A stretch of DNA of 64,000 bases from Candidatus Kapaibacterium sp. (GTDB taxonomy: Bacteria; Bacteroidota; Ignavibacteria; Kapaibacteriales; WFXC01): positions 38,031 to 102,030 of the forward strand of contig JALWJX010000082.1 in assembly GCA_026996895.1 (NCBI GenBank), read 5' to 3'. The stretch's first letter is position 1, and every line of letters starts with the position of its first letter. The translations under genes and the position numbers were made by a program. Shown here in pieces: positions 3,745-64,000 of this stretch. The notes beneath the pieces are model-generated. The model searched no databases and had not been told where the DNA came from. It worked only from the letters and a program-made list of their open reading frames with translations.

Positions 3745-3895
3745 AGGGAATGATGTTTGCCGACTAAAGTCGGCGCTCCCAGTGCCGGCGCTCCCGGTTT
3801 GCTGGAAGCGCACGCTTCAGCGTGTCTGGGAGCGCACGCTTCTGTGTGCATCGTCTTTGCCGACGAAACTCGGCGTTCCCCGGTATAGGACAGAC
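3745..3895. repeat. Cluster of REP-like hairpin repeats (unit TGCCGAC-N4-GTCGGCGCTCCC plus GGAAGCGCACGCTT modules) between convergent genes.
   Basis: The perfect short inverted repeat gccgacNNNNgtcggc followed by gctccc occurs twice here. It recurs at 20985-21300 in inverted orientation and at 58285-58445. Confidence 0.6.
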
Positions 3896-20277: not shown

Positions 20278-20592
20278 ATGCCATTGAAAATCCAGTATTC
20301 CCGCAGCGCTCTTGAAAAGTTCTGCAAGCGATGGCACATTCAGGAACTTGCTCTTTTCGGCTCTTCACTGCGGGAGGACTTCCGACCTGACAGTGATGTG
20401 GATGTTCTGGTCACCTTTCAACCTGGGATCTTCTGGTCCTTTCGGGACTGGCTCCAGATGGTGCGTGAACTGGAAGCTATTTTTGGACGAACGGTAGACC
20501 TGGTGGAACGCCGGATGGTAGAGCAAAGCAAAAACTATATCCGCCGCAATCATATTCTCACTCACCTGGAGCAGGTCTATGTGGCGCGATGA
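20278..20592 (+). CDS. mntA: Nucleotidyltransferase antitoxin (MntA-like) of a HepT/MntA type VII toxin-antitoxin pair.
   Basis: It has the minimal nucleotidyltransferase motif [18 protein letters not shown] (GS-x9-DxD). Confidence 0.8.
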
Positions 20593-20920
20593 GGCATACC
20601 TTCTCGATATGCTGATTGCTGCCCGCGAAGCCAGAGATTTCAGTGAGGGACTCACCTGGAAGACATTTCAACAGAGCTCTCTCCACCAGCATGCTATTGC
20701 TAAGGCATTGGAGAATATCGGCGAGGCAGCACGAAAAGTGTCGAACGAAATGAAAGCTGCTCATCCCGAAATTCCGTGGAGAGAGATTGTCGCATTGCGC
20801 CACCGTATTGCCCACGATTATTTCCACCTCGACTTAGTGCGGATATGGCAAATTGTGCAGGAAGACGTACCCACCCTCATTCGGCTCCTTGAACCGCTAA
20901 TACCTCCAGAGGAGCATTAA
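20579..20920 (+). CDS. hepT: HEPN-domain (DUF86) toxin HepT.
   Basis: The Rx4HxY HEPN motif is present in LRHRIAHDY. The gene overlaps mntA by 14 nt, as is typical for this pair. Confidence 0.8.
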
Positions 20921-20984: not shown

Positions 20985-21300
20985 CGGGGGCGCCGGATTC
21001 AGCCGGCATGTTTCTGCACACTAAAGTATGCGCTCCAACCGGGAGCGCCGACTTCCGTCGGCAAAAAATAGAAGGATACACTAACGTAAATGTGTAGTAG
21101 GGGCGACCGGCCGGTCGCCCCTACGGGTGTGGATGATGTGACCAGCGGGGTTGCGCCGACTGGGAGCGCCGGCTTTAGCCGGCAAAGAATGCACCCGGAA
21201 GTGTGCGCTCCCAGTAAACCGGGAACGCCGACTTTCGCTGGCATATCTGGAACACCGACTTCCCGAAAGATAACTACAGATGTAGGCACTGCCGATTTGC
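20985..21300. repeat. REP-like hairpin repeat cluster (inverted orientation relative to 3745-3895) between convergent genes.
   Basis: It contains gggagcgccgac-ttcc-gtcggc, gggagcgccggc-ttta-gccggc, the ggggcgaccggccggtcgcccc palindrome, and gcgctccc modules. Confidence 0.6.
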
Positions 21301-31291: not shown

Positions 31292-31415
31292 CTCCGGTGT
31301 ATCATAGCGGTGTTACGGGGGCTGTCAAACGCTATCTGGCACTTTGTGCGCAACCTACGCACACTGCACTGAAAATGGCAAAATATTTTGGGTAATAAAT
31401 CAAGGAAGTCTGGTG

Positions 31416-37400: not shown

Positions 37401-39587
37401 ACGCTCACTGGCAGTGAGTTCCTCGGATCAGTCAATGCCCAGCCGGTAGTGATCCGGACGAACAACACTGAGGCGATGCGGATCGATGCCAATCAACGGG
37501 TGGGGATTGGAACGAACGCACCGAGCCACACCCTGCACGTTGCTGCGCCCAGCAATCCGTTGCGTCTGGAAGGGTTGCAGTCATTGAGCAATGCCGGAAC
37601 GATCTTGGCGGTTGATGCTAACGGTGTGGTCTACACCACCAGCGCCAGTTCCTTTACAGCATCGAACGCCTGGTCGCTGACAGGAAACGCCGGGACTGAT
37701 CCGACAACGAATTTCCTGGGAACTACCGACAATCAACCACTGGTGATTCGCACCAACAACCTTGAACGGATGCGGATCTCCACGACCGGCAATGTCGGCA
37801 TTGGCATCAGCACGCCGACCAACACGTTGCACGTCAAAGCAACGAGCAACCCACTGCGGTTGGAAGGCGTGCAAACTACTGCCAGTGCTTCGACCCTGTT
37901 AGCCATCGACGCCAATGGGGTCGTGGTCTCGACCAGTGCCTCGACTTTTGTTGCCAACAACGCTTGGGCACTCAGCGGCAACACGCTCACTGGAAGTGAA
38001 TTTCTCGGATCGGTCAATGCGCAGCCGGTAGTGATCCGAACGAACAACACTGAGGCGATGCGGATCGATGCCAACCAACGGGTGGGGATTGGAACCAATG
38101 CACCGAGCCACACCTTACACGTTGCTGCGCCCAGCAACCCGCTGCGGTTGGAAGGTTTACAACCACTGAGCAACGCCGGAACGATCTTGGCGGTTGATGC
38201 TAACGGTGTGGTCTACACCACCAGCGCCAGTTCCTTTACAGCATCGAACGCCTGGTCGCTGACAGGAAACGCCGGGACTGATCCGACAACGAATTTCCTG
38301 GGAACTACTGACAATCAACCGCTGGTGATTCGGACCAACAATGCGGAACGGATGCGAGTGTTAGCCTCTGGCTACGTTGGTGTTGGGACGACCTCTCCAA
38401 CTGCCCGGTTAATGGCAGTCGAAGATGCACCCGGACAGGCAGTGATGCGAATCCAGAATCTGGATGCCGCTGGTCTTTCCGGTATTGAATTTCTGACCCA
38501 CACCTCTGCTGTAATGGGGTACGTTGGGCTGGAACCTGGCGGCGGTGCTCTGCGCATCTGGAGTCAGTCAAATATGATCCGGTTCTATACCAACGGCGTA
38601 GAACGGGTGCGAATCACGACCACCGGAAACGTTGGAATCGGATCCTTAGATCCGCAATATCGGCTGCACATTGAAGGCGATGGAATGATGTACGCCTCTG
38701 GAGAATTCGGCAAGGGCGCAACGATGCCAGAAGGAGCAAAGACGGCGTTCATCTGGAATCCGCGCAAAGCGGCATTGCGAGCAGGATCGGTGACAGCAGA
38801 TCAGTGGAACGATGCTCAGGTCGGCGCTTACACCGTCGCTTTTGGTAAAAACACGATTGCCAGTGGCGCATTTTCCGTTGCGGTTGGAGAAAACACGGTT
38901 GCTGAAGGAGCGGCTGCGTGGGTCGGCGGTCGGAATTTGCATCTGCTCCCGGATGCAACGGGTACGTTTGCCTGGGGCAATACCGAACACTCCACATCGA
39001 TCGAAACCAGTTATGCGTTCCTGATTGGTCCTGGAGATACGCCCTACCGTGTCGGGATCAACACGGCAACACCGACGTACGCACTGGAGTTGCCCAATGA
39101 CTCGCGAGCGAACGTGGGACAGGCACGAGCAAACGCGTGGCTGACATACGCAGATCCACGGATGTGGAGTGCAACTGAACCCATTGGCGCAACCAGTGAG
39201 CTGTTGTCACAACTCCAACCGCTTCGATACCGCGATGTTGCAGGCAAGAGCGGCTTCAGCTTTGATCCCCAGCAACTGGCAGCGGTTCTCCCGGAAGCGG
39301 TGGGGGTTCCAGCAGACAGCTCGCAGCAGTGGAGTATTAACTATGCAGCGCTCATTCCTGTGCTGGTCGCAATGCTCCAGGAACAGCAGCAGCAAATCCA
39401 GCAATTGCGGCAACAGAATCTGGCATTGCAACAGCAAGTTGCCGAAACACAGCAACTCCGGAAGCGACTGGCAAAAATGGAGCAGCAACTGTCAACGCTG
39501 GAACAGTTACAGCAGCAGGTTCGGTACCTGATCCAGCTCCAGCGTGAAGCACGCCCCGTTCCAACAGCAAGCAACGGCGGAAAATAA
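31416..39587 (+). CDS. Giant secreted repeat protein (about 2,720 aa). It has a signal peptide, about twenty ~95-aa modules, two YadA-head-like Gly-rich 14-mer blocks, a C-terminal tail-fiber intramolecular-chaperone (peptidase S74)-like domain and a Gln-rich coiled coil.
   Basis: It has a signal peptide (MKHRVQLILLIWLIFSPLLWSQ) after an aggaag ribosome-binding site. The module consensus is NAWSLTGNAGTDP..FLGTTDNQPLVIRTNN.ERMRI...VGIGT.TPT.TLHVKATSNPLRLEGLQ....LAVDANGVVYTTSAS. The STIGGGLQNTASGQYSTIGGG repeats resemble the YadA head. The C-terminus (LQPLRYRDVAGKSGFSFDPQQLAAVLPEAVGV....QWSINYAALIPVLVAMLQEQQQQIQQL) resembles the S74 chaperone domain. Confidence 0.8.
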   Translation: MKHRVQLILLIWLIFSPLLWSQGNPSVGIGTFTPDPSAILELRSTSKGFLVPRMTTAQRNAISSPALWLLIFNTDTQQFEYWNGTVWIPLISIQNVSNSAWSLSGNTLTGSEFLGSVNLQPVVFKTNGAERMRISTTGNVGIGIITPTNTLHVKATSNPLRLEGLQSLSNASTILAVDANGVVYTTSASSFTASNAWSLTGNAGTDPNTDFLGTTDNQPLVIRTNNTERMRILASGLVGIGTNTPTNTLHVKATSNPLRLEGVQTTASASTLLAIDANGVVVSTSASTFVANNAWALSGNTLTGSEFLGSVNAQPVVIRTNNTEAMRIDANQRVGIGTNAPSHTLHVAAPSNPLRLEGLQSLSNAGTILAVDANGVVYTTSASAFAAANAWSLTGNAGTDPTTNFLGTTDNQPLVIRVNNLQAVRIEPTNQTINIIVGTSNIVTAGVYGAVISGGGYGNNENKVTDNFSTVSGGVSNQAGNNNADVTDAQYATVGGGYGNTASGLGSTISGGWNNTASAARSTIGGGYNNNAIGWGTTIGGGADNIASSEYSTVSGGKNNNANVAYSTIGGGLQNTASGQYSTIGGGLQNTASGQYSTIGGGLQNTASGQYSTIGGGSANITGGDWSTVSGGWTNIASGGGSVVGGGRGNTAGGAYSTIPGGLNNSALGDYTYAGGRAMYLSTSANHTFVWGYATATSAITASDAFLIGPYGNNYRVGINVVNPTAALHVTAGTWTYPLRLEGLQPLSNAGTILAVDANGVVYTTSASAFAAANAWTLTGNAGTDPAINFLGTTDNQPLVIRTNNLERMRISTTGNVGIGISTPTNTLHVKATSNPLRLEGVQTTASASTLLAIDANGVVVSTSASTFVANNAWALSGNTLTGSEFLGSVNAQPVVFKTSGIEAMRIDVDQQVGIGTSTPTNTLHVKATIDPLRLEGLQTTSATATVLVSDAAGIVYTTSASALAAANAWSLTGNAGTNPASNFLGTTDNQPLIIKVNNAQALRIEPTVGSPNILGGYGLNSISSGVVGAVISGGGSTGLSNKVTDNYGVIGGGVGNQVGNNSGGAIDAQYATVGGGYGNTASSTSSTVGGGELNIASGLRSTVGGGYSNTASGDRGTVGGGYGNTASGPGSTVAGGENNTASGGVSAVGGGDNNIASGDVSTVGGGYSNIASGAGSTVGGGTNNTASGNTSTVSGGAFNTAAGDVSWAGGAYMYLSPTADHTFVWGYATATSAITASDAFLIGPYGNNYRVGINVVNPTAALHVTAGTWTYPLRLEGLQPLSNAGTILAVDANGVVYTTSASAFAAANAWALTGNAGTDPAINFLGTTDNQPLVIRINNLERMRISTIGNVGIGISTPTNTLHVKATSDPLRLEGVQSSANATTLLAIDASGVVVSTSASTFVANNAWALSGNTLTGSEFLGSVNAQPVVIRTNNTEAMRIDANQRVGIGTNAPSHTLHVAAPSNPLRLEGLQPLSNAGTILAIDANGVVYTTSATSFTAANAWSLTGNAGTDPNTDFLGTTDNQPLVIRTNNTERMRILASGLVGIGTSTPSHTLHVKATSDPLRLEGVQSSANATTLLAIDVNGVVVSTSASTFVANNAWALSGNTLTGSEFLGSVNAQPVVIRTNNTEAMRIDASQRVGIGTNAPSHTLHVAAPSNPLRLEGLQSLSNAGTILAVDANGVVYTTSATSFTAANAWALSGNTLTGSEFLGSLNAQPVVFKTNGVERMRITAAGDIGIGTTTPGAKVDIRANSASDLLVRIWNAGGNAKFRIVGQGGSAQPRFQYTVNAEWLSEIAGNTSTGLEFRVRAPSDPNDEATLATRTRMVVGRTGNVGIGTLSPTNRLHVVAPSNPLRLEGLQSLSNAGTILAVDANGVVYTTSATSFTAANAWALSGNAGTDPNTDFLGTTDNQPLVIRTNNTERMRILASGLVGIGTNTPTNTLHVKATSNPLRLEGVQTTASASTLLAIDVNGVVVSTSASTFVANNAWALSGNTLTGSEFLGSVNAQPVVIRTNNTEAMRIDANQRVGIGTNAPSHTLHVAAPSNPLRLEGLQSLSNAGTILAVDANGVVYTTSASSFTASNAWSLTGNAGTDPTTNFLGTTDNQPLVIRTNNLERMRISTTGNVGIGISTPTNTLHVKATSNPLRLEGVQTTASASTLLAIDANGVVVSTSASTFVANNAWALSGNTLTGSEFLGSVNAQPVVIRTNNTEAMRIDANQRVGIGTNAPSHTLHVAAPSNPLRLEGLQPLSNAGTILAVDANGVVYTTSASSFTASNAWSLTGNAGTDPTTNFLGTTDNQPLVIRTNNAERMRVLASGYVGVGTTSPTARLMAVEDAPGQAVMRIQNLDAAGLSGIEFLTHTSAVMGYVGLEPGGGALRIWSQSNMIRFYTNGVERVRITTTGNVGIGSLDPQYRLHIEGDGMMYASGEFGKGATMPEGAKTAFIWNPRKAALRAGSVTADQWNDAQVGAYTVAFGKNTIASGAFSVAVGENTVAEGAAAWVGGRNLHLLPDATGTFAWGNTEHSTSIETSYAFLIGPGDTPYRVGINTATPTYALELPNDSRANVGQARANAWLTYADPRMWSATEPIGATSELLSQLQPLRYRDVAGKSGFSFDPQQLAAVLPEAVGVPADSSQQWSINYAALIPVLVAMLQEQQQQIQQLRQQNLALQQQVAETQQLRKRLAKMEQQLSTLEQLQQQVRYLIQLQREARPVPTASNGGK
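31700..38350 (+). repeat. Intragenic tandem and interspersed DNA repeats (285-bp modules, many more than 90% identical over more than 300 bp) inside the giant gene.
   Basis: Near-identical stretches occur at about 32170-32480, 37260-37570 and 37850-38150, and at about 31830-32000, 33820-33990 and 37780-37950. The same spurious antisense ORFs (MHAFQPQWVARCFDVQRV...) appear three times. Confidence 0.8.
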
Positions 39588-52141: not shown

Positions 52142-55100
52142 ATGATGGCACAATTGTGGAAACCGCGCCTAAATACAGTATTATTGACGATCGCTCTCTG
52201 GACTGTCTGTATCATTGCTGGCTGGTCTCAGACAGTTTTCCGCGAAGGAGGCATCCCCCGGATGGTCATTGCAACTACCGGCAATGTAGGGATTGGTACA
52301 ACCACTCCTTCTATCACTGCATTGCTGGAACTCAGCTCAACCTCCGCGGGGATCCTCATTCCCCGACTCACTCAGGCAGAGCGAGATGCAATCAACTCCC
52401 CTGCGTTGTGGTTATTGATCTTCAACACCACCGCCCAGCAGTTTGAATACTGGAACGGTTCGCAGTGGATTCCTTTAATTTCTGCTACTTCTCTCACTTC
52501 CAGCAGTTGGTCACTGACGGGGAACGCTGGAACCGACCCAGCGACCAATTTTCTGGGTACCACGGATAACCAGCCGTTGGTGATTCGGACGAACAACACC
52601 GAAGTAATGCGGGTTACCACTACTGGCAACGTTGGGATTGGCACCAGTGCTCCCGGCTATCGCCTTCACCTTGCTGCTGATGGGATGATCTATGCGGAAG
52701 GAACTTTTGGTGCGGGAGCAACCGTTCCGCCGGGAGCGAAGACAGCGTTTATCTGGAACCCGCGCAAAGCGGCGATTCGAGCTGGACAGGTAACGGGCAA
52801 TCAGTGGGATGATGCGAATGTTGGCAACTACTCGGTTGCTTTTGGGTACGCTAACACTGCCAGTGGTGCTGGGAGCACCGTTGGTGGTGGGCAGGGCAAC
52901 GTTGCCAGCGGTCAGAATAGCACCCTCGGTGGTGGCTACCTGAACACCGCCAGCGGCAACTGGAGCACTGTCGGCGGCGGCTATCAGAACACCGCCAGTG
53001 GCGTTACCAGTACCATCGGTGGTGGTCTTTCCAACACTGCCAGCGATTATTATAGCACCGTCGGCGGCGGTCAACAAAACATCGCCAGCGGCACTGGCAG
53101 CACCGTCAGCGGCGGCGTCCAGAACACTGCCAGCGGGCACTATAGCACTGTTAGCGGTGGCTTTTACAACACCGCCAGCGGTTACTCCAGTATTGTCAGC
53201 GGGGGTCGGAACAATACTGCTGGCGGTGATTACTCCTGGGCAGGTGGCGGCTATATGTACCTCAGCGCTGCTGCCGATCGCACCTTCGTCTGGGGGTATG
53301 CCACGGTGACAACGGCGATTACTGCTTCGGATGCCTTTCTGATTGGTCCGTATGGCAACAGTTACCGTGTTGGGATCAACGTATTGAACCCTGCCGCGGC
53401 ACTGCATGTCAACGTTGGAAGCTGGTCGTACCCGCTACGGGTGGAAGGATTACCGACAACGAGCGCCAGCAGTACGGTGCTGGTCTCAGATGCCGCAGGG
53501 ATCGTGTACACCACCAGTGCCAGTGCACTGGCGGCATCCAATGCCTGGTCGCTGACAGGAAATGCCGGGACCGATCCAACAACGAATTTCCTGGGAACCA
53601 TTGACAACCGACCCCTGGTGATTCGCACGAACAACACCGAAGTAATGCGGGTTACCACTACTGGCAACGTTGGCGTTGGGACAGTGACACCAACAGTGAA
53701 GTTACACGTCAAGGCTGTCAGCAATCCGCTACGGCTGGAAGGGTTGCAGCCTTTGAGCAACGCCAGCACGATTTTAGCCGTCGATGGTAGCGGCGTGGTC
53801 TACACCACCAGTGCCAGTAGCCTGGCATCTGCCAGCGCGTGGAACATTACGGGGAACAGTGGTACAGATCCAGCAACGAACTTCTTAGGAACGACCGATA
53901 ATCAGCCGCTGGTGATTCGGACCAACAATGTAGAGCGGATGCGGATCACTGTTAACGGCTATGTTGGCATTGGAACAGATACTCCTGGGGAAATGCTGGA
54001 TATTGTCGGCAACTCCGATGCTGATCTGAATCTCACTTCCTTTGGTTCTTCCATTAGCACTATTCATATGCGTCGAGCCTTAGGAAGCAAATCTTCTCCA
54101 GCACCGGTAACCAACAATAACAACTTAGGTGGTGTCGAAGGCTTAGGGTACGACGGAACACAATACGTCCGGGCTGCGGGTATTGATTTTCAGGTTGATG
54201 GACCGGTCACCGCCAATGTAGTACCAGGACGGATTGTATTTCGAGTCCGACGACAAGGAAGTACCAGCTGGGGCGGAGAGGAGCAGGTGTTTATCAAAAA
54301 TGATGGAAAGGTAGGAATTCGGGTTGCCCATCCAACACATCGGCTGCACGTTGTAGCAGAAACTGGGGAAGATCCGCTCCGCCTGGAGGGTCTGCGAACG
54401 ACAACAGCGACGGTGGATTTGCTGGTTGCCACAGCCAGCGGCAGTGTGCATACCAGCAACGTACAGAGTTTAGTGGGCACTGTCGCCTGGTTGCTCACTG
54501 GAAATGCGGGGACAGATCCGGCGACGAATTTCTTAGGAACGACCGATAATCAGCCGTTGATCATCAAAGTAAACAACACGCAGGCATTGCGCATTGATCC
54601 CAACAGTGTATCGCCCAACATTATAGGCGGGTACAGCGGCAATAGCATTGCCAGCAGCGTTGTTGGGGCAATCATTAGCGGTGGTGGGAAGACAGCGGGA
54701 ACCAATCAGGTCACTGATAATTATGGCGTAGTCGGCGGCGGCGCTGGCAATCGAGCTGGCAATAATAGCGGGACAACCACTGATGCAGCGTATGCAACTG
54801 TGGGGGGAGGCTACGTTAATATAGCCAGTGGACAATACAGTATGGTTGGAGGGGGACAGAGCAACGTTGCCAGCGGGAACCATACTGTAGTTGCAGGGGG
54901 ATATAACAATCATGCCATTGGCAGTTACACTGCCGTTGGAGGGGGCATTAATAACAGTGCAAATGGCAATTATGGAATTGTCAGTGGAGGGGAACTCAAC
55001 AATGCCAGTGGTAGTTATAGCACCATTAGTGGGGGAAAGAGCAACATCGCCAGTGGTCAATACAGTGTTATAGGAGGCGGAATAAATAATGTTGCCAGCA

Positions 55101-58100
55101 ATACTTACAGTACCGTAGGAGGTGGATCTGGAAATCAAGCCAGCAGTTGGGCCAGCACAGTGGGAGGAGGACAGGGAAACACGGCAGGAGGAAATGGTGG
55201 AACGATCAGCGGCGGAGAAAACAACACTATCAATGCAGTTCTGGGTACAATCGGAGGAGGACAGGGAAACACGGTCAGTGGAGATAGAGGGACAATTGCA
55301 GGGGGACAGAATAACGCTGTTAATGGTATTGCAGGCACAATCGGAGGAGGACAGGGAAACACGGCAGGAGGAAATGGAAGTACAATCGCTGGAGGACAAA
55401 GTAATACTGCCAGCAGTAGTTATAGCAGCATTGGTGGAGGTATAAACAACAGTGCCAATGGCAACAATAGCACCGTTGGCGGTGGGGAACTCAACAGTGC
55501 CAGCGGCAGTCATAGTACTGTTGGAGGTGGCAAGAGCAACGCTGCTGGAGGTAGTTATAGCACAATCGGGGGAGGCATTAATAACGCTGCTGAAAACAAC
55601 TATAGTGCAGTCGTTGGCGGTCAAAATAACAAAGCCAGAGGATGGTACAGCACGATTGGAGGTGGAGGTGATAATAGCGTGAGCGGGAGATATAGTACGA
55701 TCAGCGGAGGAAGGGGCAATACCGTAGCAGGCGATTATGGATGGGCTGGGGGACGGGGAATGTACGCCGTGAGTTCTGCTGATCGGACCTTTGTCTGGGG
55801 CTATGCAACAGCGACGACGGCAATTACGGTATCAGATGCGTTTTTGATCGGTCCGTACGGGAACAGCTATCGAGTCGGGATCAACATACTGAATCCAACC
55901 GCGGCATTGCACGTCAATGCTGGGACGTGGAGCTACCCATTGCGGGTAGAGGGATTACCCTCAACCAGTGCCAGTAGCACAGTGCTGGTATCGGATGCCA
56001 GTGGGATTATTTACACCACCAGCGCCAGCAGTCTGGTCGGAAGTAATGTATGGTTGTTAACCGGCAATGCGGGCACGAATCCGGCAAGCAATTTCCTGGG
56101 TACCACCGATAATCAACCACTATCGATCCGCAGCAACAATCAGGAGGTTGTGCGAATTTCAACCTCGGGTGTGCAAATGCTACATCATAATACCACCTCT
56201 GTCCTCAGCATAGGTCCCAATCAACGAGTGAAAATTCAGGAATACCAACCGCACAGTGGAACTGATATTGGTGCCCCGGTGTGGGGGCGAGGCAGGATCA
56301 GTGTTGGAGGGACTGTCATCACAGGCTTTTGGCCCGCCGTGAAGTTTAACACGTACTGGAATCCTGCCGTAAGTCAGAACGTCCACATCACAACAGGGTC
56401 AGCATTCGTGATCAACCACGAACAGGACCCCGCTGCAAACAATCTGGTCATTTACTACTCCCCGTACCGATCAGCAGGTCAACAGTTTCAATACAATATA
56501 GGGCTTGCACTGACAACTTCCGGCAATGTTGGCGTTGGAACTGATACCCCAACAGCGAAGCTCCATATCAGCGCAACCAGTGCACCTTTGCGGCTGGAAG
56601 GATTGCAGGCAACCAGTGCAACGACAACCTTGTTGGCAGCAGATGGGCAGGGGGTGGTATATGCAACCAATGCCAGCAGTTTGATCAACAATCAGGCGTG
56701 GTCATTATTTGGCAACAGCGGGACGGACCCAGCAGTGAACTTCGTAGGAACTATCGACGCCCAACCGCTGGTGTTCCGGACGGGCAACGTTGAACGGGCG
56801 CGGATTACAACAGCAGGGCATCTGGGGATTGGAACCTCAAATCCCGGGTGGCTTCTGGATGTTGCTGGAACTGTCCACTTCGGAACCAGCGGAAACTTTG
56901 GAACCATCATTGCTGATATGCAGGCAGCCAACTTGTATGCTGGGGGATTGCAGGTGCGTAAGCGTGGAGCCACTGGAGATGCAAATGCGGCCGTCGTGGA
57001 TGGTTCAGAAATTGGTTATCACGATTTCTGGGGCTGGGATGGGAACAATTACAAGCGGTTAGCATACGTATTGGTAACCGCTCACGGAAATATTACCCCA
57101 GGCAGCGGTGGGGGCGATTATGCGATCGTAACTCGGGATCCAACGACCAATACTGAAGAGACTCGACTTTTCATCGATGCTCGAGGATATGTTGGGATCG
57201 GAACGACAACGCCGCTGCGACGCCTGGTGGTTGGCAATGACGATATTAACGGCATCAGTCTGGAAGAAGGCACCAGTCCGAATGCGGGATATTTGCGTTT
57301 TGGCGATAATACGGGATGGAAGTTTCACATTGGTCGCTCTCGGGAAAGCACATCAGGACCGTTGAATATAAGCACAACCGGGGTATTGGTAACAATTCAG
57401 GATGACGGCAACGTAGGAATTGGCAACACAGCACCACCAGCAACGTTGACAATCACAAATGCTATAGAGCTGCGCGGCAGTGGGAATGTATCATCGGTAG
57501 AAAGTGATATTCTCTTCACCTACAGCGGCGGTATTGCGGCGCAGAATAGTTTATACTTCTTCATTGATGCTGACAACAATGATGATGATACTCGAGCTTT
57601 CCGATTTCGCCGCAATGGGGAGACCATTAGTTCAACCAACACTGAAGATTTAATGGTCATTCGGGAAAGTGGAAAGGTTGGCATTGGGGTCGGTAATCCG
57701 AGCAATATTCTCACCATCGTACAAAACTCTTCCACAGATCCTATTGCCGATGCGTGGACAACGTATTCCACGCCGGAGACGAAAATCGTGTTAGGAACAC
57801 TGGATGCTGAAGCGCTGGAAGAATACCTCCGCCAGTTCAAGCAGTTGCCCATATATAAATGGCAGCGGACGGAAAGCGAACCGATCCGGGTCAGTGCAAT
57901 GGCAGAACCGGGCACACCGTCAGAAATTATGGCGTACGATGAAAAAGGAGAAATCCAGGGAATCGACCTGCAGGGATACATCGGGTTCTTACACACAGTG
58001 GTCAAAGCCCAACAGCAAATCTTAGAGCAGCAGCAGGCAGCGATCCAGCAACTCCAGACATCGACGCAACGCCAGCAGACAGAGATCCAGCAGCTTCGGC

Positions 58101-58246
58101 AACAACTGGCAACTCTGCAGCAGGTGCTGGAGCAGGACAGGAAACGCCAGGCGGAAGTAACAGCGCTGCGGCAGGTAGTGCTCCAGCTGCAGCAGCAAAT
58201 CGAACAGCTCCAGCAGCAACTCAAAGTGACACAGAGCCAGCAGTAG
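52142..58246 (+). CDS. Giant secreted repeat protein 2 (2034 aa), a paralog of 31416-39587 with the same module types, Gly-rich 14-mer blocks and a C-terminal S74-like chaperone domain plus Gln-rich coiled coil.
   Basis: It has a signal peptide (MMAQLWKPRLNTVLLTIALWTVCIIAGWSQ). Modules read NAWSLTGNAGTDPATNFLGTTDNQPLVIRTNNTEVMRV. Gly-rich repeats read STVGGGQGNVASGQNSTLGGG. The C-terminus reads STPETKIVLGTLDAEALEEYLRQFKQLPIYKWQR...IQGIDLQGYIGFLHTVVKAQQQILEQQQAAIQQL. Confidence 0.8.
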   Translation: MMAQLWKPRLNTVLLTIALWTVCIIAGWSQTVFREGGIPRMVIATTGNVGIGTTTPSITALLELSSTSAGILIPRLTQAERDAINSPALWLLIFNTTAQQFEYWNGSQWIPLISATSLTSSSWSLTGNAGTDPATNFLGTTDNQPLVIRTNNTEVMRVTTTGNVGIGTSAPGYRLHLAADGMIYAEGTFGAGATVPPGAKTAFIWNPRKAAIRAGQVTGNQWDDANVGNYSVAFGYANTASGAGSTVGGGQGNVASGQNSTLGGGYLNTASGNWSTVGGGYQNTASGVTSTIGGGLSNTASDYYSTVGGGQQNIASGTGSTVSGGVQNTASGHYSTVSGGFYNTASGYSSIVSGGRNNTAGGDYSWAGGGYMYLSAAADRTFVWGYATVTTAITASDAFLIGPYGNSYRVGINVLNPAAALHVNVGSWSYPLRVEGLPTTSASSTVLVSDAAGIVYTTSASALAASNAWSLTGNAGTDPTTNFLGTIDNRPLVIRTNNTEVMRVTTTGNVGVGTVTPTVKLHVKAVSNPLRLEGLQPLSNASTILAVDGSGVVYTTSASSLASASAWNITGNSGTDPATNFLGTTDNQPLVIRTNNVERMRITVNGYVGIGTDTPGEMLDIVGNSDADLNLTSFGSSISTIHMRRALGSKSSPAPVTNNNNLGGVEGLGYDGTQYVRAAGIDFQVDGPVTANVVPGRIVFRVRRQGSTSWGGEEQVFIKNDGKVGIRVAHPTHRLHVVAETGEDPLRLEGLRTTTATVDLLVATASGSVHTSNVQSLVGTVAWLLTGNAGTDPATNFLGTTDNQPLIIKVNNTQALRIDPNSVSPNIIGGYSGNSIASSVVGAIISGGGKTAGTNQVTDNYGVVGGGAGNRAGNNSGTTTDAAYATVGGGYVNIASGQYSMVGGGQSNVASGNHTVVAGGYNNHAIGSYTAVGGGINNSANGNYGIVSGGELNNASGSYSTISGGKSNIASGQYSVIGGGINNVASNTYSTVGGGSGNQASSWASTVGGGQGNTAGGNGGTISGGENNTINAVLGTIGGGQGNTVSGDRGTIAGGQNNAVNGIAGTIGGGQGNTAGGNGSTIAGGQSNTASSSYSSIGGGINNSANGNNSTVGGGELNSASGSHSTVGGGKSNAAGGSYSTIGGGINNAAENNYSAVVGGQNNKARGWYSTIGGGGDNSVSGRYSTISGGRGNTVAGDYGWAGGRGMYAVSSADRTFVWGYATATTAITVSDAFLIGPYGNSYRVGINILNPTAALHVNAGTWSYPLRVEGLPSTSASSTVLVSDASGIIYTTSASSLVGSNVWLLTGNAGTNPASNFLGTTDNQPLSIRSNNQEVVRISTSGVQMLHHNTTSVLSIGPNQRVKIQEYQPHSGTDIGAPVWGRGRISVGGTVITGFWPAVKFNTYWNPAVSQNVHITTGSAFVINHEQDPAANNLVIYYSPYRSAGQQFQYNIGLALTTSGNVGVGTDTPTAKLHISATSAPLRLEGLQATSATTTLLAADGQGVVYATNASSLINNQAWSLFGNSGTDPAVNFVGTIDAQPLVFRTGNVERARITTAGHLGIGTSNPGWLLDVAGTVHFGTSGNFGTIIADMQAANLYAGGLQVRKRGATGDANAAVVDGSEIGYHDFWGWDGNNYKRLAYVLVTAHGNITPGSGGGDYAIVTRDPTTNTEETRLFIDARGYVGIGTTTPLRRLVVGNDDINGISLEEGTSPNAGYLRFGDNTGWKFHIGRSRESTSGPLNISTTGVLVTIQDDGNVGIGNTAPPATLTITNAIELRGSGNVSSVESDILFTYSGGIAAQNSLYFFIDADNNDDDTRAFRFRRNGETISSTNTEDLMVIRESGKVGIGVGNPSNILTIVQNSSTDPIADAWTTYSTPETKIVLGTLDAEALEEYLRQFKQLPIYKWQRTESEPIRVSAMAEPGTPSEIMAYDEKGEIQGIDLQGYIGFLHTVVKAQQQILEQQQAAIQQLQTSTQRQQTEIQQLRQQLATLQQVLEQDRKRQAEVTALRQVVLQLQQQIEQLQQQLKVTQSQQ

Positions 58247-58284: not shown

Positions 58285-58445
58285 AGGAAAGCGCTTCTTA
58301 GGATGCATTCTCTGCCGACGAAAGTCGGCGCTCCCGGTGGGGTTCACTGGAAACGCACGCTTTAGTGGGCGTTCACTGGGAACGCACCCTTGAGGGTGCA
58401 CTCTCTTTGCCGGCTAAAGTCGGCGCTCCCGGTAGAGTGCTTGTT
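58285..58445. repeat. REP-like hairpin repeat cluster between the convergent fiber-2 and TauE genes.
   Basis: tgccgacgaaagtcggcgctcccgg and tgccggctaaagtcggcgctcccgg flank ggaaacgcacgcttt and gggaacgcaccctt modules. Confidence 0.6.
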
Positions 58446-58446
58446 G

Positions 58447-59202
58447 CTACCACTGGGTATACAAAAAGTAGAGGGCAAAGAGCAGGATCGTGGTACCGTA
58501 GATGCGTTCCAGCACCTGATTCCGCAACCGAATGGCGATCCGTGCTCCCCAGTAGCCAAAGGGGATCACAATCGCGGCAAGCAGTCCGGCAACGACAGGA
58601 TCGATATGCTGCAACAGGAAATGCGTAACCGTAGATGGAATGGCAAAGCCGGCAACACAGAGCAGCGATGTTGCTAATGCCTGCTTCAACGGCAATCGCA
58701 GCAATCGGACAAAGGCAGGCACCATCACAATGCCCCCCCCAATCGCTAAAAACCCGGAGAGGAAACCCGCCACCATCCCGGTCACCAGGACGTTCAAGGT
58801 CGTCACGTTTGGTTCCTGTTCCACTCTCCCCTGCAAAATCCAGCCGCGGATAAAGAACATCGCGCCCGTTCCAAACAAAAACACTGCGGTGAGAATCATC
58901 AACAACTTCCCGCTCACCCATTCCGTAGCGTATGCGCCAAACACGTTGGCAGGAATTCCTACCAGCAACGTCATTCGAGCAACGCGCCAGTGAACCAGTT
59001 TCCTCCGGGAATACGCCACAGCACCAGCGACGGCTGACGGAATGGCAACTGGGATGGGGGTTCCCAGCGCCAGCAACGGCGGTAATGCCAGAAAAATTCG
59101 GAGCAAAGGGGTGGATAAAAGCGCGCCACCGATGCCAAATAATCCAGAGCTCAATCCCACAACAGCACCGATCCATAGAATGTGGTACCACTGTGGCGGC
59201 AT
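58447..59202 (-). CDS. TauE/SafE-family anion exporter (sulfite-exporter-like membrane protein).
   Basis: The two internal repeats have glycine-rich motifs (GLFGIGGALLSTPLL and LAIGGGIVMVPAFV) typical of TauE/SafE. Confidence 0.7.
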   Translation of the reverse strand: MPPQWYHILWIGAVVGLSSGLFGIGGALLSTPLLRIFLALPPLLALGTPIPVAIPSAVAGAVAYSRRKLVHWRVARMTLLVGIPANVFGAYATEWVSGKLLMILTAVFLFGTGAMFFIRGWILQGRVEQEPNVTTLNVLVTGMVAGFLSGFLAIGGGIVMVPAFVRLLRLPLKQALATSLLCVAGFAIPSTVTHFLLQHIDPVVAGLLAAIVIPFGYWGARIAIRLRNQVLERIYGTTILLFALYFLYTQW

Positions 59203-60656
59203 CAGAGTTGCTCAATAGCAATCATATTCGTGCGCACCTTTTGTTGCAGCGGTCGACCCAGCGTAATCACTACTCTTGACCCTTTCGGAAAGAACTCTGC
59301 TGCCAATCGTTGTTTGATCTGCTCAATAGCTTCATCGGTATTGGTAAACTTCGGAAAGAGCAATGGAACGACCCCCCATAGTAATTTGACCCGCCGGGCA
59401 ATGGTCTGATCATAGGTCACCGCAAACAGGGATGGCTGAGGACGTTGTGCCGCCACCTGACGCAGTGTCTCCCCGCTATAGGTCAAAATTGCCAGTGCCG
59501 CAACGGGCAAATTCCGGGCGATTTCCACCGCTGCTCTGGCAATGGCAATGGGCCGTTGATCTCTGGTTGACCATCCTTTGGGCTCGCTGCGCGGATGCCA
59601 CTGTGGCAATTCCCGTTCAGCGGCAGAACAAATCATCCGCATATATGCCACTGCTTCCACGGGATATGCCCCAACGGAAGTTTCTGCGCTGAGCATTACC
59701 ACATCCGTTCCGTCCAGCACAGCATTGGCAACATCGCTGGCTTCTGCCCGTGTTGGACGCGGATTGTGCACCATCGATTCCAGCATCTGTGTTGCGGTAA
59801 TGACCAGCTTTGCCCGCTCATTGCACATCCGAATAATGCGCTTCTGCACGATCGGCACTTCCGCCGCCGGAATTTCCACGCCCAGATCGCCACGGGCGAT
59901 CATAATACCGTCAGACACGTGGAGGATTGCCTCAATGTTATTGACCGCTTCCGGCTTTTCAATTTTTGCAATCAACCACGGCTCAACCGCTGGCTGCTGG
60001 CGGTGAATGAACCGGCGAACCGCCTGCACATCTTTCTCACTGCGAACAAAGGAAATCGCAATGTAATCACACTGATGTTCCAGCGCAAAGCGAACATCCC
60101 GGCGATCCTTGGGAGTAAAAGCAGGCAGTGTCAACGCTACTCCCGGCACATTGATCCCTTTGCGGGACTTCAGGATACCACCGTCTATTACCACCGCCTT
60201 CACAATGCCATTGCGCACCTGCTCAACCCGTACCTGAAGCAAACCGTCATCAAACAGCAGGACATTGCCTGGCTTAACATCCTGGGCTAAGGTTGGAAAC
60301 TGCAACGGGATAACATCCAAAGGTTTGCCCAGCTCCTGCCACTTTCGCACACTGGCAAAGTACACCGGCTTTCCGGGGCGCAGCATCACTTCCCCATTGG
60401 GCAAATCTCCAACCCGCAGTTTTGGACCCTGAATATCCGCAACGATGGGAATTACAATGTTGAGCTCTTTCTCCAGCGACCGGATCAGCTCGATTATGCG
60501 GGCGTGCATCTCGTGATTGCCGTGGGACATATTGAGGCGGAATGCAGAAGCACCTGCTTCCAGCACCGCTCGCAACTTTTCCTTCGACGCAATCGCAGGA
60601 CCCACAGTACATAGAATCTTCGTGCGGTACGTAACCGCCGGTGCTTTTCGCATCAT
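59202..60656 (-). CDS. pyk: Pyruvate kinase.
   Basis: It has the N-terminal TKILCTVGPA, the MSHGNHEMH region, the K+/Mg site MIARGDLGVEIP and a C-terminal allosteric domain. Confidence 0.9.
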   Translation of the reverse strand: MMRKAPAVTYRTKILCTVGPAIASKEKLRAVLEAGASAFRLNMSHGNHEMHARIIELIRSLEKELNIVIPIVADIQGPKLRVGDLPNGEVMLRPGKPVYFASVRKWQELGKPLDVIPLQFPTLAQDVKPGNVLLFDDGLLQVRVEQVRNGIVKAVVIDGGILKSRKGINVPGVALTLPAFTPKDRRDVRFALEHQCDYIAISFVRSEKDVQAVRRFIHRQQPAVEPWLIAKIEKPEAVNNIEAILHVSDGIMIARGDLGVEIPAAEVPIVQKRIIRMCNERAKLVITATQMLESMVHNPRPTRAEASDVANAVLDGTDVVMLSAETSVGAYPVEAVAYMRMICSAAERELPQWHPRSEPKGWSTRDQRPIAIARAAVEIARNLPVAALAILTYSGETLRQVAAQRPQPSLFAVTYDQTIARRVKLLWGVVPLLFPKFTNTDEAIEQIKQRLAAEFFPKGSRVVITLGRPLQQKVRTNMIAIEQL

Positions 60657-60659
60657 TTA

Positions 60660-61559
60660 CTATGAACGTTCTTTCGCTGTGATACCAGAATGGGGTGATT
60701 GTACGGCATCCGTTGCCCATAGCAGCTTTTCTTTCAGCAAATCGTAATACGTTCGAGTTTTCTGCCGCAGCAATTTGAACGCATACCGGGATTTATACAG
60801 CGGGACTCGCTGATTATTGCCCAGGGGCTGGACGACCATCCCATCTGCCAGCAATTGTACGTGTCCCGATTCCGAAAACGGCTCCACCGCGATCTCGACG
60901 CTATCAGGAACGACTAATGGGCGAACCGTCAGCGAATGTGGTGCCACAGGAGTGATGCAAAAGACATCGCACGACGGGGCAATAATCGGTCCTCCGCTGG
61001 CAAGAGAATACGCCGTTGATCCTGTTGGGGTAGAGACAATCAGCGCATCGGCGCGATAGCTGGAAATCAACTTGCCGTCGATGTATGCTTTGACCGTAAT
61101 CATCCGGGAAAAATCCTGCTTGTGCACGACAAAGTCGTTCAACGCATACGCCACCTGATCGTTAATTCGGCATTCCAGCACTGACCGATGCTCAATGATG
61201 TAGTCACCTGTCAACACTGCTGAAATAGCGGCATCCAGTTGTTCAACGGAAAACTCTGCCAGAAATCCCAGTTTGCCAATGTTGATTCCCATCACAGGCA
61301 AAGCGCTTTTGAGAAAAATATGGCACGCTTTCAGCATTGTACCATCACCACCAAAGGACATCACGACGTCGGCAAAGCGCTCAAACTCCTCAAACGGCAG
61401 CACTTTCACATATTCTCGAACGGTGCTGCTCAACCGGCGCGCTGCTTCAGGATCGATGCAGCACGGTACATCCAGCGATTGGAGCATTTGAATAGCCTGT
61501 TCAACCGCTTCCAGCGCCTGCGGTTTGCCAAGGTGGACGAATAATCCGATACGTCTCAT
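60660..61559 (-). CDS. nadK: NAD(+) kinase.
   Basis: It has the GGDGTMLKA motif, the NDFVV segment and the GSTAYSLASGGPI motif. Confidence 0.85.
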   Translation of the reverse strand: MRRIGLFVHLGKPQALEAVEQAIQMLQSLDVPCCIDPEAARRLSSTVREYVKVLPFEEFERFADVVMSFGGDGTMLKACHIFLKSALPVMGINIGKLGFLAEFSVEQLDAAISAVLTGDYIIEHRSVLECRINDQVAYALNDFVVHKQDFSRMITVKAYIDGKLISSYRADALIVSTPTGSTAYSLASGGPIIAPSCDVFCITPVAPHSLTVRPLVVPDSVEIAVEPFSESGHVQLLADGMVVQPLGNNQRVPLYKSRYAFKLLRQKTRTYYDLLKEKLLWATDAVQSPHSGITAKERS

Positions 61560-61918
61560 TGTTCCGCCGATGACTCTGACGATGAAGACGCTTCTGGCGT
61601 CGCTGATGGAGGAGAAGATGGGGTATCCGATCCAGACTCAGCCGATGTTTGCGCAGCCTGCTGCGCCTGCCGTTCTTTTTCCAGCGCATAGTTAACGCGC
61701 AACACGTGCAGCGCATCCTGAAGAATGCGCTTTTCGGTCTCAGAAAGATTCCCCTGTGTCTTTTCCTCCAGCAACGCCAGCACTTCAATCGAAATTTTCG
61801 CCAGGCGCAAATCCACCTGGGTTTGCCCCGTCAGTGGATTCTGCAATTTTCCCAGGCCGATCATTCCCTGCGTGTAAAATTGCTGAACCAATTCTTCCCA
61901 CCGCATCATACCAACCAT
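61556..61918 (-). CDS. Small conserved hypothetical protein (possibly DUF1844-like) with an acidic Ser-rich tail.
   Basis: The pattern LGKLQNPLTGQTQVDLRLAKISIEVLALLEEKTQGNLSETEKRILQDALHVLRVNY resembles, as I recall it, the DUF1844 family. It is translationally coupled to nadK. Confidence 0.4.
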   Translation of the reverse strand: MVGMMRWEELVQQFYTQGMIGLGKLQNPLTGQTQVDLRLAKISIEVLALLEEKTQGNLSETEKRILQDALHVLRVNYALEKERQAQQAAQTSAESGSDTPSSPPSATPEASSSSESSAEQ

Positions 61919-62865
61919 TTTGCTAATTCCACATACACCGATGGAACGATGCGACGATAGCGCTCCAGCGTTTCAAAGGGAACGAATGTCAACTGTCCCT
62001 GGTGCTGTCCTACATATCCATCGGTTTTCCCTTCCAGAAGGGCATCAACTGCTACCTTGCCCAGAAAACTGCCCAGAAGCCGATCCCGCACCGTCGGCGA
62101 TCCTCCCCGCTGAATATGTCCCAACAACGTTACTCGCGACTCAATGCCATACTGCTCTCGAAAATACTCCGCAAATGCCAGCGCGCCCCCTTTCTCGTCC
62201 CCTTCAGCAACGACAACAATCACTCGCCGATCCGGTCCAATGCGCTGAATTTCTTCGTATAGACTCTGAAAATCTGTTCGTTCCTCCGGTAGAGCAATAT
62301 ATTCTGCTCCTCCTGCAATGCCAGCATACAGGGCAATATAGCCCGACCACCGTCCCATTACCTCGACAAAAAAGATTCTGCCGTGCGACTCTGCTGTATC
62401 GCGAATTTTGTCAATCGCTTCCATTGCCGTATTGACTGCCGTATCAAACCCCAGCGATTCATCAATTCCCGGAATATCGTTATCGATAGTCGCAGGAACG
62501 CCAACAATGGGAATCTGATGTTCCTGCCACAACGTATGAGCTGCCTTGAACGAACCTTCTCCTCCGCAGATAATCACTCCCTCGATCCCCGCACGATGGA
62601 GCTGCTCTGCACACCGGGCGCGAACCGATGGGTGCAGAAAATCCGGGAATCGGGATGTTCCCAGAATCGTCCCACCACGTCCAATGATGTCAACCGTATC
62701 CAGCCGACCAAGTGGGATAAAATCGCCTGCCGCCAATCCCCGCAATCCGGAGCGGATGCCCTGCACCTCAATCCCCCTGCGCTCTGCGTAGCGTACCACC
62801 GCCCGAATACAGGCGTTCATCCCCGGCGCATCTCCTCCGCTGGTCAGCAAACCAATCCGCTGCAT
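61906..62865 (-). CDS. pfkA: 6-phosphofructokinase (PfkA family), copy 2.
   Basis: It has MQRIGLLTSGGDAPGMNACIRAVVR, VMGRWSG and ATIDNDI. The start is placed at MQRIGLL; the longest ORF extends to 62943. Confidence 0.85.
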   Translation of the reverse strand: MQRIGLLTSGGDAPGMNACIRAVVRYAERRGIEVQGIRSGLRGLAAGDFIPLGRLDTVDIIGRGGTILGTSRFPDFLHPSVRARCAEQLHRAGIEGVIICGGEGSFKAAHTLWQEHQIPIVGVPATIDNDIPGIDESLGFDTAVNTAMEAIDKIRDTAESHGRIFFVEVMGRWSGYIALYAGIAGGAEYIALPEERTDFQSLYEEIQRIGPDRRVIVVVAEGDEKGGALAFAEYFREQYGIESRVTLLGHIQRGGSPTVRDRLLGSFLGKVAVDALLEGKTDGYVGQHQGQLTFVPFETLERYRRIVPSVYVELAKWLV

Positions 62866-63262
62866 CCCCTTTCCGAACTCTAACCGCAAAAAGACAAATA
62901 TACAGAAAACCGTTTGGAGAGAGGATCGACTTTCAGCCAACATCTTTTCGTCTTAACATTTTTCTCTTGAGTCCCACCATTCCGCTCAATCGGTCGACAC
63001 AACAGACAGCGCTGTAAAAAAGCATCGAACGGCGCAACGCGCTACCTCCGTCAGGCGACTTTACATCGCTATCCTCTGTGCCTTTCTACTCCCAGCGTGT
63101 TGGTTGAGCACCTTCTTAATCTCCCTCGATTCTACGACTTCCACCACTGTTCTTCACAAAATAAACCCTCGCTCAGAACTTTAGGCTGAAATTCCAACAG
63201 CGACAAACTACAAGACTTCACAGCACGTTTGCATCATACCGAACAATACAAAGCGTACAAAG

Positions 63263-64000
63263 ATGTTGCAACGCATTGTACTTGGCGGATACAAATCAAT
63301 CCGAAACGTAGACCTGGAACTTCGCCCCATCAATATTCTCATTGGAGCCAACGGCTCAGGAAAATCCAATTTCATCAGCATTTTCCAGTTTATGAACCGC
63401 CTCGTCAACCAGGGAATGCAACGATACGTCGCTCAGGCAGGCGGCGCAAACCAACTGCTTCACTATGGACGCAAAGGAAGTGACCGCCTCTTCGTAGAAC
63501 TCTGGTTCCGCACGGACGAATCGCTTCTCAACGGCTATCGCTGCTCCCTGATCCCGACCGATGAAGACCTGCTCGTCTTCGAAGAAGAGTCTGCTGCTTT
63601 CCATAATCTCTCCGAGTACCCCGATCCCTATTGGTCAAAAGAGTCTCATACCGTGCACAGCGAAACGCTGTTACCTCAGTGGGTGGAGGAAGAAGACACC
63701 GTCTCGCGTTACGTGTTGCAAGCTCTGAAGTCCTGGCAAGTGTACCACTTCCACGATACAAGCCCATCAGCGCGAGTCAAACAAACCGGTGACATTTATG
63801 ACAACCTTTTCCTCCGCCCTGATGCCTCCAATCTGGCAGCGTATCTGTATCTACTCCAGGAACAATTCCCAAAACACTACCGGAACATTGTCGACACCAT
63901 TCGCCGGGTCGCCCCATTCTTCGGCAATTTCGTGCTCCGTCCATCTCCTTTGAATCCGGACACCATCCGGCTGGAGTGGCAGGAACGCGGTTCCGATATG
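63263..64000 (+). CDS. P-loop ATPase of the SMC/ABC-like AAA_15/AAA_21 type (partial; 3' end beyond the window). This ATPase type frequently occurs in defence systems.
   Basis: The ATG-initiated frame runs open to the window edge (MLQRIVLGGYKSIRNVDLELRPINILIGANGSGKSNFISIFQFMNRLV...). The Walker A motif GANGSGKS is embedded in the N-terminal pattern typical of these ATPases. Confidence 0.6.
   Translation, partial: MLQRIVLGGYKSIRNVDLELRPINILIGANGSGKSNFISIFQFMNRLVNQGMQRYVAQAGGANQLLHYGRKGSDRLFVELWFRTDESLLNGYRCSLIPTDEDLLVFEEESAAFHNLSEYPDPYWSKESHTVHSETLLPQWVEEEDTVSRYVLQALKSWQVYHFHDTSPSARVKQTGDIYDNLFLRPDASNLAAYLYLLQEQFPKHYRNIVDTIRRVAPFFGNFVLRPSPLNPDTIRLEWQERGSDM

What the first reader, a model, noticed from the sequence alone, without database searches (positions are those of the whole stretch)
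63263..64000. P-loop ATPase of the defence-associated AAA_15/AAA_21 type cut off at the window edge
An unlisted open frame, MLQRIVLGGYKSIRNVDLELRPINILIGANGSGKSNFISIFQFMNRLV, starts right after the pfk copy and carries the N-terminal signature shared by OLD-family, Gabija GajA, Septu PtuA and RloA/AbiL-type ATPases. If a nuclease or partner gene follows beyond the window, this is the 5' edge of an anti-phage system. That fits the degraded defence-like remnants seen elsewhere in the window.
Basis: partly seen in the sequence, partly recalled or inferred. Interest (0 to 1): 0.55.

Follow-up and report, generated by a model that had tools for sequence, protein, structure and literature searches.

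The report
HEC-01 ATPase–Toprim defence gene pair

The parts
63263..64000 (+). 5' two-thirds (codons 1-246 of 369) of the HEC-01A ABC ATPase gene. In extended coordinates the gene continues to about 64372.
   Evidence: Open frame. PADLOC HEC-01A E 1e-80 for the fragment and 6.9e-148 for the full-length 99%-identical protein. Contig L082, reverse-complemented, is 5200/5200 identical to window 58801-64000 and gives the remaining 123 codons. The AF2 model (pLDDT 89.2) matches SMC and Rad50 heads, PtuA and OLD. Off the window, the DUF4276/HEC-01B gene occupies extended coordinates 64369-65046 (+), with a 4-bp ATGA overlap.
63344..63367 (+). Walker A / P-loop, G28-A-N-G-S-G-K-S35
   Evidence: Read directly from the sequence. 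G28, A29, N30, G31, G33 and K34 are invariant in a 27-sequence alignment.
63926..63928 (+). Codon 222 (AAT, Asn). This strain-private D222N substitution falls at a position that is Asp in every other family member examined.
   Evidence: Asp in 119 of 119 homologues and in all 6 alleles from sister strains; Asn only in the window strain. The codon was read. Its functional effect is unknown.
62866..63262 (.). Divergent intergenic spacer between pfk (-) and the ATPase (+). It is the presumed promoter region of the two-gene operon.
   Evidence: Gene positions. GC is 0.46 against 0.53 for the window. No sigma-70-type consensus was found, so the promoter is inferred, not shown.

Best explanation
The frame is the A gene of a two-gene HEC-01 cassette: a compact ABC (SMC-head-like, AAA_21-type) ATPase, translationally coupled to a standalone DUF4276 Toprim-like protein encoded just beyond the window. 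What is shown: the family identity of both genes, their 4-bp overlap, conservation of the pair across phyla, an ABC-head fold for A, and an OLD-Toprim-like fold for B. What is inferred, by analogy with PARIS (AriA/AriB), OLD and Gabija, and with the Mad3/Mad4 pair of MADS: the ATPase oligomer senses a phage cue or nucleotide state and either holds the metal-dependent nuclease in check or activates it. The nuclease would then cut nucleic acid (DNA or tRNA; the substrate is unknown), stopping phage replication, possibly at the cost of the cell. In this genome the cassette stands alone, has long been resident at a housekeeping locus, and has been kept by purifying selection.
Confidence: 0.72

Rival explanations
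1. A housekeeping SMC/RecF/RecN-type ABC ATPase involved in DNA repair or chromosome maintenance. The gene sits 2 kb from scpA, scpB and ruvB.
For: The N terminus hits Pfam SMC_N (30.8 bits for the fragment, 49 bits full length). The best Foldseek hit is an SMC head. scpA, scpB and ruvB lie just downstream. Purifying selection is as strong as on housekeeping genes, and inheritance is vertical.
Against: RecF equivalog 23.6 bits against cut-off 172; SMC and Rad50 models about 10 bits against 700-1100. The protein has no coiled-coil insertion and is only 369 aa. It is obligately paired with a Toprim-like gene across phyla whatever the neighbours. The SMC-head resemblance is shared by all defence ABC ATPases. 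None of 80 distant pfk loci carries the pair.
Confidence: 0.03
2. A sub-module of a larger methylation-based system: the Mad3/Mad4 pair of MADS/Hma, or an RM-embedded effector. On this reading the pair works only together with a methyltransferase and other partners.
For: HEC-01 was discovered embedded in Hma systems. The best NCBIfam hit is MAD3 (105.6 bits) and PADLOC mad3 scores 93 bits. Some loci have ResIII, SNF2, N6_Mtase, Methylase_S, Eco57I or MmeI genes immediately upstream.
Against: MAD3 scores 105.6 bits against an equivalog cut-off of 420. There is no methyltransferase, helicase or other mad gene within 6 kb on either side at this locus or in four sister strains. Only about a fifth or fewer of 58 upstream neighbours are RM-like. 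PADLOC treats HEC-01 as a self-contained two-gene system.
Confidence: 0.06
3. A member of one of the well-characterised ABC-ATPase defence families named by the first reader: OLD, Gabija, PARIS, Septu or AbiL/Rlo.
For: There are weak hits to all of them through the shared ABC core: PADLOC AriA 91 bits, AbiLi 79, Old 50 and GajA 42; PDB OLD 6p74 E 2e-10.
Against: HEC-01A scores 490 bits, five times the next non-HEC family. The partner matches only HEC-01B and DUF4276, not DUF4435 (AriB), HNH (PtuB), RloB or AbiLii. The Toprim-like domain is not fused to the ATPase, as it is in OLD and GajA. No UvrD-type GajB gene is adjacent. NCBIfam PtuA scores 12.5 bits against 500.
Confidence: 0.04
4. A decaying or already inactive copy in this species, or an ATPase that has a role independent of the nuclease. 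The cassette would be a relic here, not a working defence.
For: D222N and P368L are private to the window strain and fall at positions conserved in 119/119 and 118/119 relatives. An 11-bp tandem duplication frameshifts DUF4276 in at least three sister assemblies while the ATPase stays intact. The partner is reduced to internally deleted remnants in L005, L008 and L030 and is absent in L056 and L077, each beside an apparently full-length ATPase match (tblastn, residues 2-368). Partner pN/pS is 0.14-0.22, higher than the ATPase.
Against: In the window strain both reading frames are intact. ATPase pN/pS is 0.06-0.09 and partner pN/pS is well below 1, so the long-term record is of selection for function. 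The effect of D222N is unknown.
Confidence: 0.15

Closest known systems
PADLOC candidate system HEC-01 (HEC-01A ABC ATPase + HEC-01B TOPRIM/DUF4276); Payne et al., bioRxiv 10.1101/2024.01.29.577857
   Same: Both proteins match the family HMMs end to end (490 and 239 bits). The gene order A then B, the strand and the tight coupling are the same. So are the ABC fold of A and the Toprim-like fold of B.
   Different: This copy is not embedded in an Hma/MADS or RM locus but stands alone between housekeeping genes. The host is an uncultured bacterium. The window allele carries D222N and P368L at invariant positions.
Mad3/Mad4 of the methylation-associated defence system MADS (Maestri et al.; 10.1101/2023.03.30.534895)
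   Same: An ABC ATPase plus DUF4276 pair. MAD3 is the best NCBIfam hit, and Mad4 is cited as a DUF4276 homologue.
   Different: It scores only 105.6 bits against the 420-bit MAD3 cut-off. No mad1, mad2 or mad5-8 genes are nearby.
PARIS (AriA ABC ATPase + AriB DUF4435 Toprim nuclease; PMC11464382)
   Different: The partner family is DUF4276, not DUF4435, and is 225 aa rather than about 300. The ATPase is 369 aa against about 460, and the AriA model scores 91 bits against 490 for HEC-01A. Trigger and substrate are unknown here.
OLD-family nucleases and Gabija GajA
   Different: In OLD and GajA the two domains are fused in one polypeptide of about 520-600 aa, and Gabija adds the GajB helicase. 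Here they are two genes with no helicase.

Membership tests
PADLOC HEC-01 | Protein A matches a HEC-01A profile | tested here: met
   PDLC04175: E 1e-80 for the window fragment (profile 6-241 of 363) and E 6.9e-148, 490 bits, profile 6-362 for the full-length 99%-identical protein.
PADLOC HEC-01 | The adjacent gene matches a HEC-01B profile (DUF4276 / Toprim-like) | tested here: met
   PDLC04188 E 1.7e-71 and Pfam DUF4276 165 bits against cut-off 30.2. The gene is off the window but sits on a contig 100% identical over the 5,200-base overlap.
PADLOC HEC-01 | The two genes are adjacent and co-oriented | tested here: met
   4-bp ATGA overlap on the same strand. The same arrangement is found in 76 of 80 genome loci.
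PADLOC HEC-01 | Confers anti-phage protection | not testable with these tools
   The literature is mixed: no protection in E. coli MG1655 against BASEL and classic phages, but protection against at least one of T4, T5 and T7 for a cold-seep representative.
ABC ATPase superfamily (SMC/Rad50-head type) | Walker A, ABC signature and Walker B motifs, and an ABC head fold | tested here: met
   GANGSGKS (28-35), LSDGT (253-257) and ILDEPE (278-283) are conserved. Foldseek matches the SMC head 4i99 at E 1.7e-14 and Rad50 at 9e-14. Only Walker A lies inside the window.
Toprim superfamily (partner protein) | Toprim fold with a conserved Glu after beta-1 and an acidic DxD after beta-3 | tested here: inconclusive
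OLD family / Gabija GajA | ATPase and Toprim fused in one polypeptide (Gabija also needs a GajB UvrD-like helicase) | tested here: not met
   The ATPase ends at residue 369 with no Toprim domain. The Toprim-like protein is a separate gene and there is no helicase in the flanks. PADLOC Old scores 50 bits and GajA 42 bits.
PARIS | AriA paired with a DUF4435 (AriB) effector | tested here: not met
   The partner hits only DUF4276 in Pfam and only HEC-01B in PADLOC. AriA scores 91 bits against 490 for HEC-01A.
Septu | PtuA paired with the PtuB HNH nuclease | tested here: not met
   NCBIfam PtuA 12.5 bits against cut-off 500. The partner is not an HNH protein.
MADS (Mad3) | Reaches the MAD3 equivalog score and lies in an operon with the methyltransferase and other mad genes | tested here: not met
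   105.6 bits against cut-off 420. The flanking genes are pfk, NAD kinase, pyruvate kinase, a SpoU methylase (rRNA/tRNA type), scpA, scpB and ruvB.
RecF / RecN / SMC (housekeeping) | Reaches the curated equivalog score | tested here: not met
   RecF 23.6 bits against 172; SMC 10 bits against 729; Rad50 about 9 bits against 700-1087.

The most novel reading that the evidence does not exclude
In this lineage the HEC-01 ATPase has been vertically inherited at a housekeeping locus next to scpAB and ruvB, under selection as strong as on core genes, while its nuclease partner is repeatedly knocked out: by a frameshift in sister strains and by internal deletions in three other phyla. This could mean the ATPase has a function of its own, independent of the Toprim effector. 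Examples would be a sensor that serves other effectors, or a role in DNA maintenance. Or it could mean the nuclease is a toxic effector whose loss is recurrently selected, leaving an orphan sensor.
Probability: 0.12. Interest if true: 0.5.

Novelty: new member of a known kind. Interest (0 to 1): 0.25.

Why it matters
It matters mainly for annotation. An open frame that looks like an SMC, RecF or generic "AAA family ATPase" gene can now be labelled as the A subunit of a HEC-01 ATPase/Toprim cassette, and the gene beyond the window edge is predicted with confidence. Yet it is barely characterised, with contradictory plaque assays and no biochemistry. This species offers natural alleles that could be used to dissect the system: an intact pair, a D222N/P368L ATPase variant and frameshifted-nuclease variants. 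None of this is surprising to a specialist in phage defence.

Tried and rejected
(1) Empty-site test. I scanned the metagenome collection with the pfk protein to find a relative with pfk next to rlmB/scpAB but without the cassette. The best pfk relatives were only 55% identical or less, and synteny was lost. Only L090 keeps scpAB near pfk, with unrelated genes between them. The test is uninformative about insertion.

(2) Defence-island context. Pfam scans of 58 immediate upstream neighbours gave a heterogeneous list with only a few RM or helicase genes. This neither supports nor excludes island association, and downstream neighbours were not scanned.

(3) Sequence search of the partner against the PDB found nothing even at E 10. 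Only fold comparison linked it to Toprim.

(4) A sigma-70 promoter scan of the pfk/ATPase spacer found nothing. The host's phylum is undetermined; its proteins look like those of the Bacteroidota/Chlorobiota/Calditrichota group, which may use other promoter types.

(5) GC content does not mark the cassette as foreign: 0.52 and 0.50 against 0.53.

(6) Organism identity was not resolved. The sources give no names for the exact proteins, and sister assemblies are known only by accession (GCA_015490805.1, GCA_027046495.1, GCA_015491775.1).

No remnants were seen, but the window was not exhaustively scanned with PADLOC.

(8) Viral contigs hold only 5 true relatives among 2.9 million contigs, so a phage or satellite origin like that of PARIS is not supported.

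Full report
OBSERVATION. The ATG is at 63263, and 246 sense codons run to the last base of the window without a stop. An in-frame stop lies 27 codons upstream, so 63263 is the first ATG after it. The ORF lister leaves the frame out only because it runs off the window end. The Walker A motif GANGSGKS occupies codons 28-35 (63344-63367). The pfk gene (61906-62865) lies on the opposite strand, so the two genes diverge across a 397-nt spacer of lower GC (0.46).

WHAT THE FRAGMENT IS. Pfam sees only the N-terminal P-loop region of the fragment: SMC_N, AAA_15 and AAA_21 at about 30 bits each. NCBIfam places nothing above a curated cut-off; RecF scores 24 bits against 172 and MAD3 50 bits against 420. 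PADLOC is decisive. Model HEC-01A (PDLC04175) matches residues 2-245 against profile positions 6-241 of 363 with E 1e-80, and the next non-HEC family is far weaker. The protein database holds more than 7,000 relatives. Nearly all are about 370 aa, and they include a 99%-identical 369-aa protein, P0001.

EXTENDING THE WINDOW. The contig encoding P0001 (L001) is 98.4% identical to window 61978-64000. It shows the ATPase followed, with a 4-bp overlap, by a 226-aa DUF4276 gene, and then by a SpoU-type methylase on the other strand. Exact-sequence look-up of window proteins showed that pfk, NAD kinase and pyruvate kinase of the window share a 110-kb contig with a 369-aa ATPase (P0153) and a 225-aa DUF4276 protein (P0159). 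Contig L082, reverse-complemented, matches window 58801-64000 at 5200/5200 bases and continues for a further 6.2 kb. Extended window coordinates (L082rc + 58800) give:
- the ATPase at 63263-64372;
- the DUF4276 gene at 64369-65046 (ATGA overlap);
- then an rlmB-like SpoU methylase (opposite strand), scpA, scpB, ruvB and gcvP.

The first 246 residues of the L082 ATPase are identical to the window translation.

FAMILY ASSIGNMENT OF BOTH GENES. The full-length ATPase scores HEC-01A E 6.9e-148 (490 bits, end to end), Pfam AAA_21 94.6 bits and AAA_15 44 bits. The partner scores HEC-01B E 1.7e-71 and Pfam DUF4276 165 bits, and it matches no other PADLOC family. With NCBIfam, the full-length ATPase still fails MAD3 (105.6 against 420) and RecF (23.6 against 172), and the partner matches nothing.

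CONSERVATION OF THE PAIR. The 80 best come from Calditrichia, Chloroflexota, Cyanobacteria, Proteobacteria, Planctomycetota, Verrucomicrobiota, Acidobacteriota, Firmicutes, Bacteroidota, Spirochaetes, Chlamydiae and others. tblastn with the partner finds a homologue starting within a few bases of the ATPase stop in 76 of the 80.

The four tblastn misses were L005, L056, L059 and L077, and an HMM search refined the picture. L059 has no sequence beyond the ATPase. L005 holds an internally deleted remnant. L056 and L077 hold nothing recognisable. Two of the 76 tblastn-positive loci, L008 and L030, also turn out to be internally deleted remnants.

Immediate upstream neighbours are heterogeneous. 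A few are RM or helicase genes (ResIII 4, SNF2 3, and 2 each of Eco57I, Methylase_S, N6_Mtase and MmeI, out of 58), and most are unrelated. Only 5 true relatives occur in 2.9 million viral contigs.

STRUCTURE. An AF2 model of the ATPase (pLDDT 89.2) is a compact ABC head without a coiled coil. Foldseek matches the SMC head 4i99 (E 1.7e-14), Rad50, PtuA, the retron-associated ATPases and Thermus OLD. The closest solved sequence relative is OLD 6p74 (E 2e-10). The alignment shows invariant Walker A residues, the LSDGT signature and the DEPE Walker B; the last two lie beyond the window.

The conserved residues of the partner fit a Toprim-type metal site. E10 (nearly invariant, at least 90%) follows beta-1. 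Invariant D80 ends beta-3 in the motif TTM-I-D-[FY]-Y-G-L-P. H129, E130 and E132 (LHEFE) are also invariant. The canonical DxD is not evident, however.

WHAT IS KNOWN. HEC-01 was defined as an ABC ATPase plus TOPRIM pair found embedded in Hma systems. The authors report structural similarity of HEC-01B to TOPRIM proteins and a conserved OLD-like metal-binding site, but no protection against any phage tested in E. coli (10.1101/2024.01.29.577857). A later study reports that a randomly chosen cold-seep HEC-01 protected E. coli B against at least one of T4, T5 and T7 (10.1101/2024.09.26.614923). DUF4276 has been assigned to the Toprim superfamily and linked to Mad4 of MADS (PMC12065111). In MADS, deleting mad3 or mad4 reduces protection, and mad5 could be deleted only together with mad2 or mad3 (10.1101/2023.03.30.534895). 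The PARIS study places DUF4276-associated ATPases in its tree of AAA_15/21 defence ATPases (PMC11464382).

MECHANISM. Four things are shown here: the identity of the two families, their translational coupling, conservation of the pair, and the ABC-head and OLD-Toprim-like folds. The mechanism is inferred from PARIS, OLD, Gabija and MADS. The ATPase oligomer would act as sensor or regulator, and the DUF4276 protein as a metal-dependent nuclease effector whose activity is gated by the ATPase. The outcome would be cleavage of phage or host nucleic acid and an arrested infection. Trigger, substrate and stoichiometry are unknown. I put about 0.9 on the family assignment and about 0.55-0.6 on the defence-nuclease mechanism.

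POPULATION DETAILS AT THIS LOCUS. Four contigs from sister strains (GCA_015490805.1, GCA_027046495.1, GCA_015491775.1 and a Logan assembly) share the same synteny. Between the window strain and L083, synonymous divergence of the ATPase (pS 0.185) equals that of its neighbours (0.18-0.28). Its pN/pS of 0.06 lies within the housekeeping range of 0.02-0.07. The cassette therefore predates the strain split and the ATPase is under purifying selection. Partner pN/pS is 0.14-0.22.

Two anomalies stand out:
- In the sister strains an 11-bp tandem duplication (GGACTACCCAA), immediately after the conserved IDFYGLP motif, frameshifts DUF4276 to a 94-aa stub.
- The window strain, whose partner is intact, carries two private ATPase substitutions at positions conserved in 119/119 (D222N, codon 63926-63928) and 118/119 (P368L, off the window) relatives.

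Together with the partner remnants in other phyla, this suggests recurrent inactivation of the presumed toxic effector. The functional state of the window allele is uncertain.

COMPARISON AND VERDICT. The locus meets every testable criterion for PADLOC HEC-01. It fails defining features of the other families considered:
- OLD and Gabija: the domains are not fused and there is no helicase.
- PARIS: the partner is not DUF4435.
- Septu: there is no HNH partner.
- MADS: the ATPase is below the cut-off and there are no mad neighbours.
- RecF and SMC: the scores are far below the cut-offs.

A partial, Pfam-only survey of about two-thirds of the window found housekeeping genes, giant repeat-rich surface proteins and one intact MNT/HepT pair. 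This is a new member of a known but poorly characterised candidate family, and its interest is low to moderate.

Noticed in passing
window 63926-63928 (codon 222), and off-window codon 368 (L082rc 5564-5566): The window strain's ATPase has Asn where 119 of 119 family members and all 6 sister alleles have Asp (APFFG-D-FVLRP). It has Leu where 118 of 119 have Pro (GGR-P). Both changes are private to this strain.
   Followed up: partly
L083 11107-11800, L084, L085, L086 (sister strains; equivalent to about 64615 in extended window coordinates): An 11-bp tandem duplication, GGACTACCCAA, right after the conserved IDFYGLP motif frameshifts the DUF4276 gene into a 94-aa stub plus a 133-aa second ORF. 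The ATPase stays intact.
   Followed up: yes
L005 10660-11286, L008 10981-11382, L030 11029-11580; L056, L077: In three unrelated genomes the DUF4276 partner is an internally deleted remnant beside an ATPase match that spans residues 2-368 of the query (tblastn). In two more it is absent. Loss of the effector seems to recur.
   Followed up: partly
window 20278-20592 and 20579-20920 (+): An intact MNT (nucleotidyltransferase, 104 aa) and HepT-like (113 aa) toxin-antitoxin pair with overlapping genes.
   Followed up: partly
window 3754-3888, 21011-21188, 58307-58438: A REP-like palindromic element of about 30 nt (TTTGCCGAC..A.GTCGGCGCTCCCGGT) occurs in pairs about 100 nt apart in three intergenic regions, in both orientations.
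   Followed up: no
window 31344-39587 (+) and 52142-58246 (+): Two giant ORFs (2,747 and 2,034 aa) share 582- and 294-nt repeat units and long runs of a 45-nt period encoding GGxxNxAS-type repeats. The homologue in a sister strain hits PTL_trimer and, faintly, an ice-binding-like family. They are probably surface or adhesin-like fibre proteins.
   Followed up: no
   Followed up: no
window 5103-6782 (-): A 559-aa protein with ABC_N, ABC_ATPase (PF09818) and MRB1590_C domains lies next to two M14 peptidase genes. It is a different, non-defence-type predicted ATPase.
   Followed up: no
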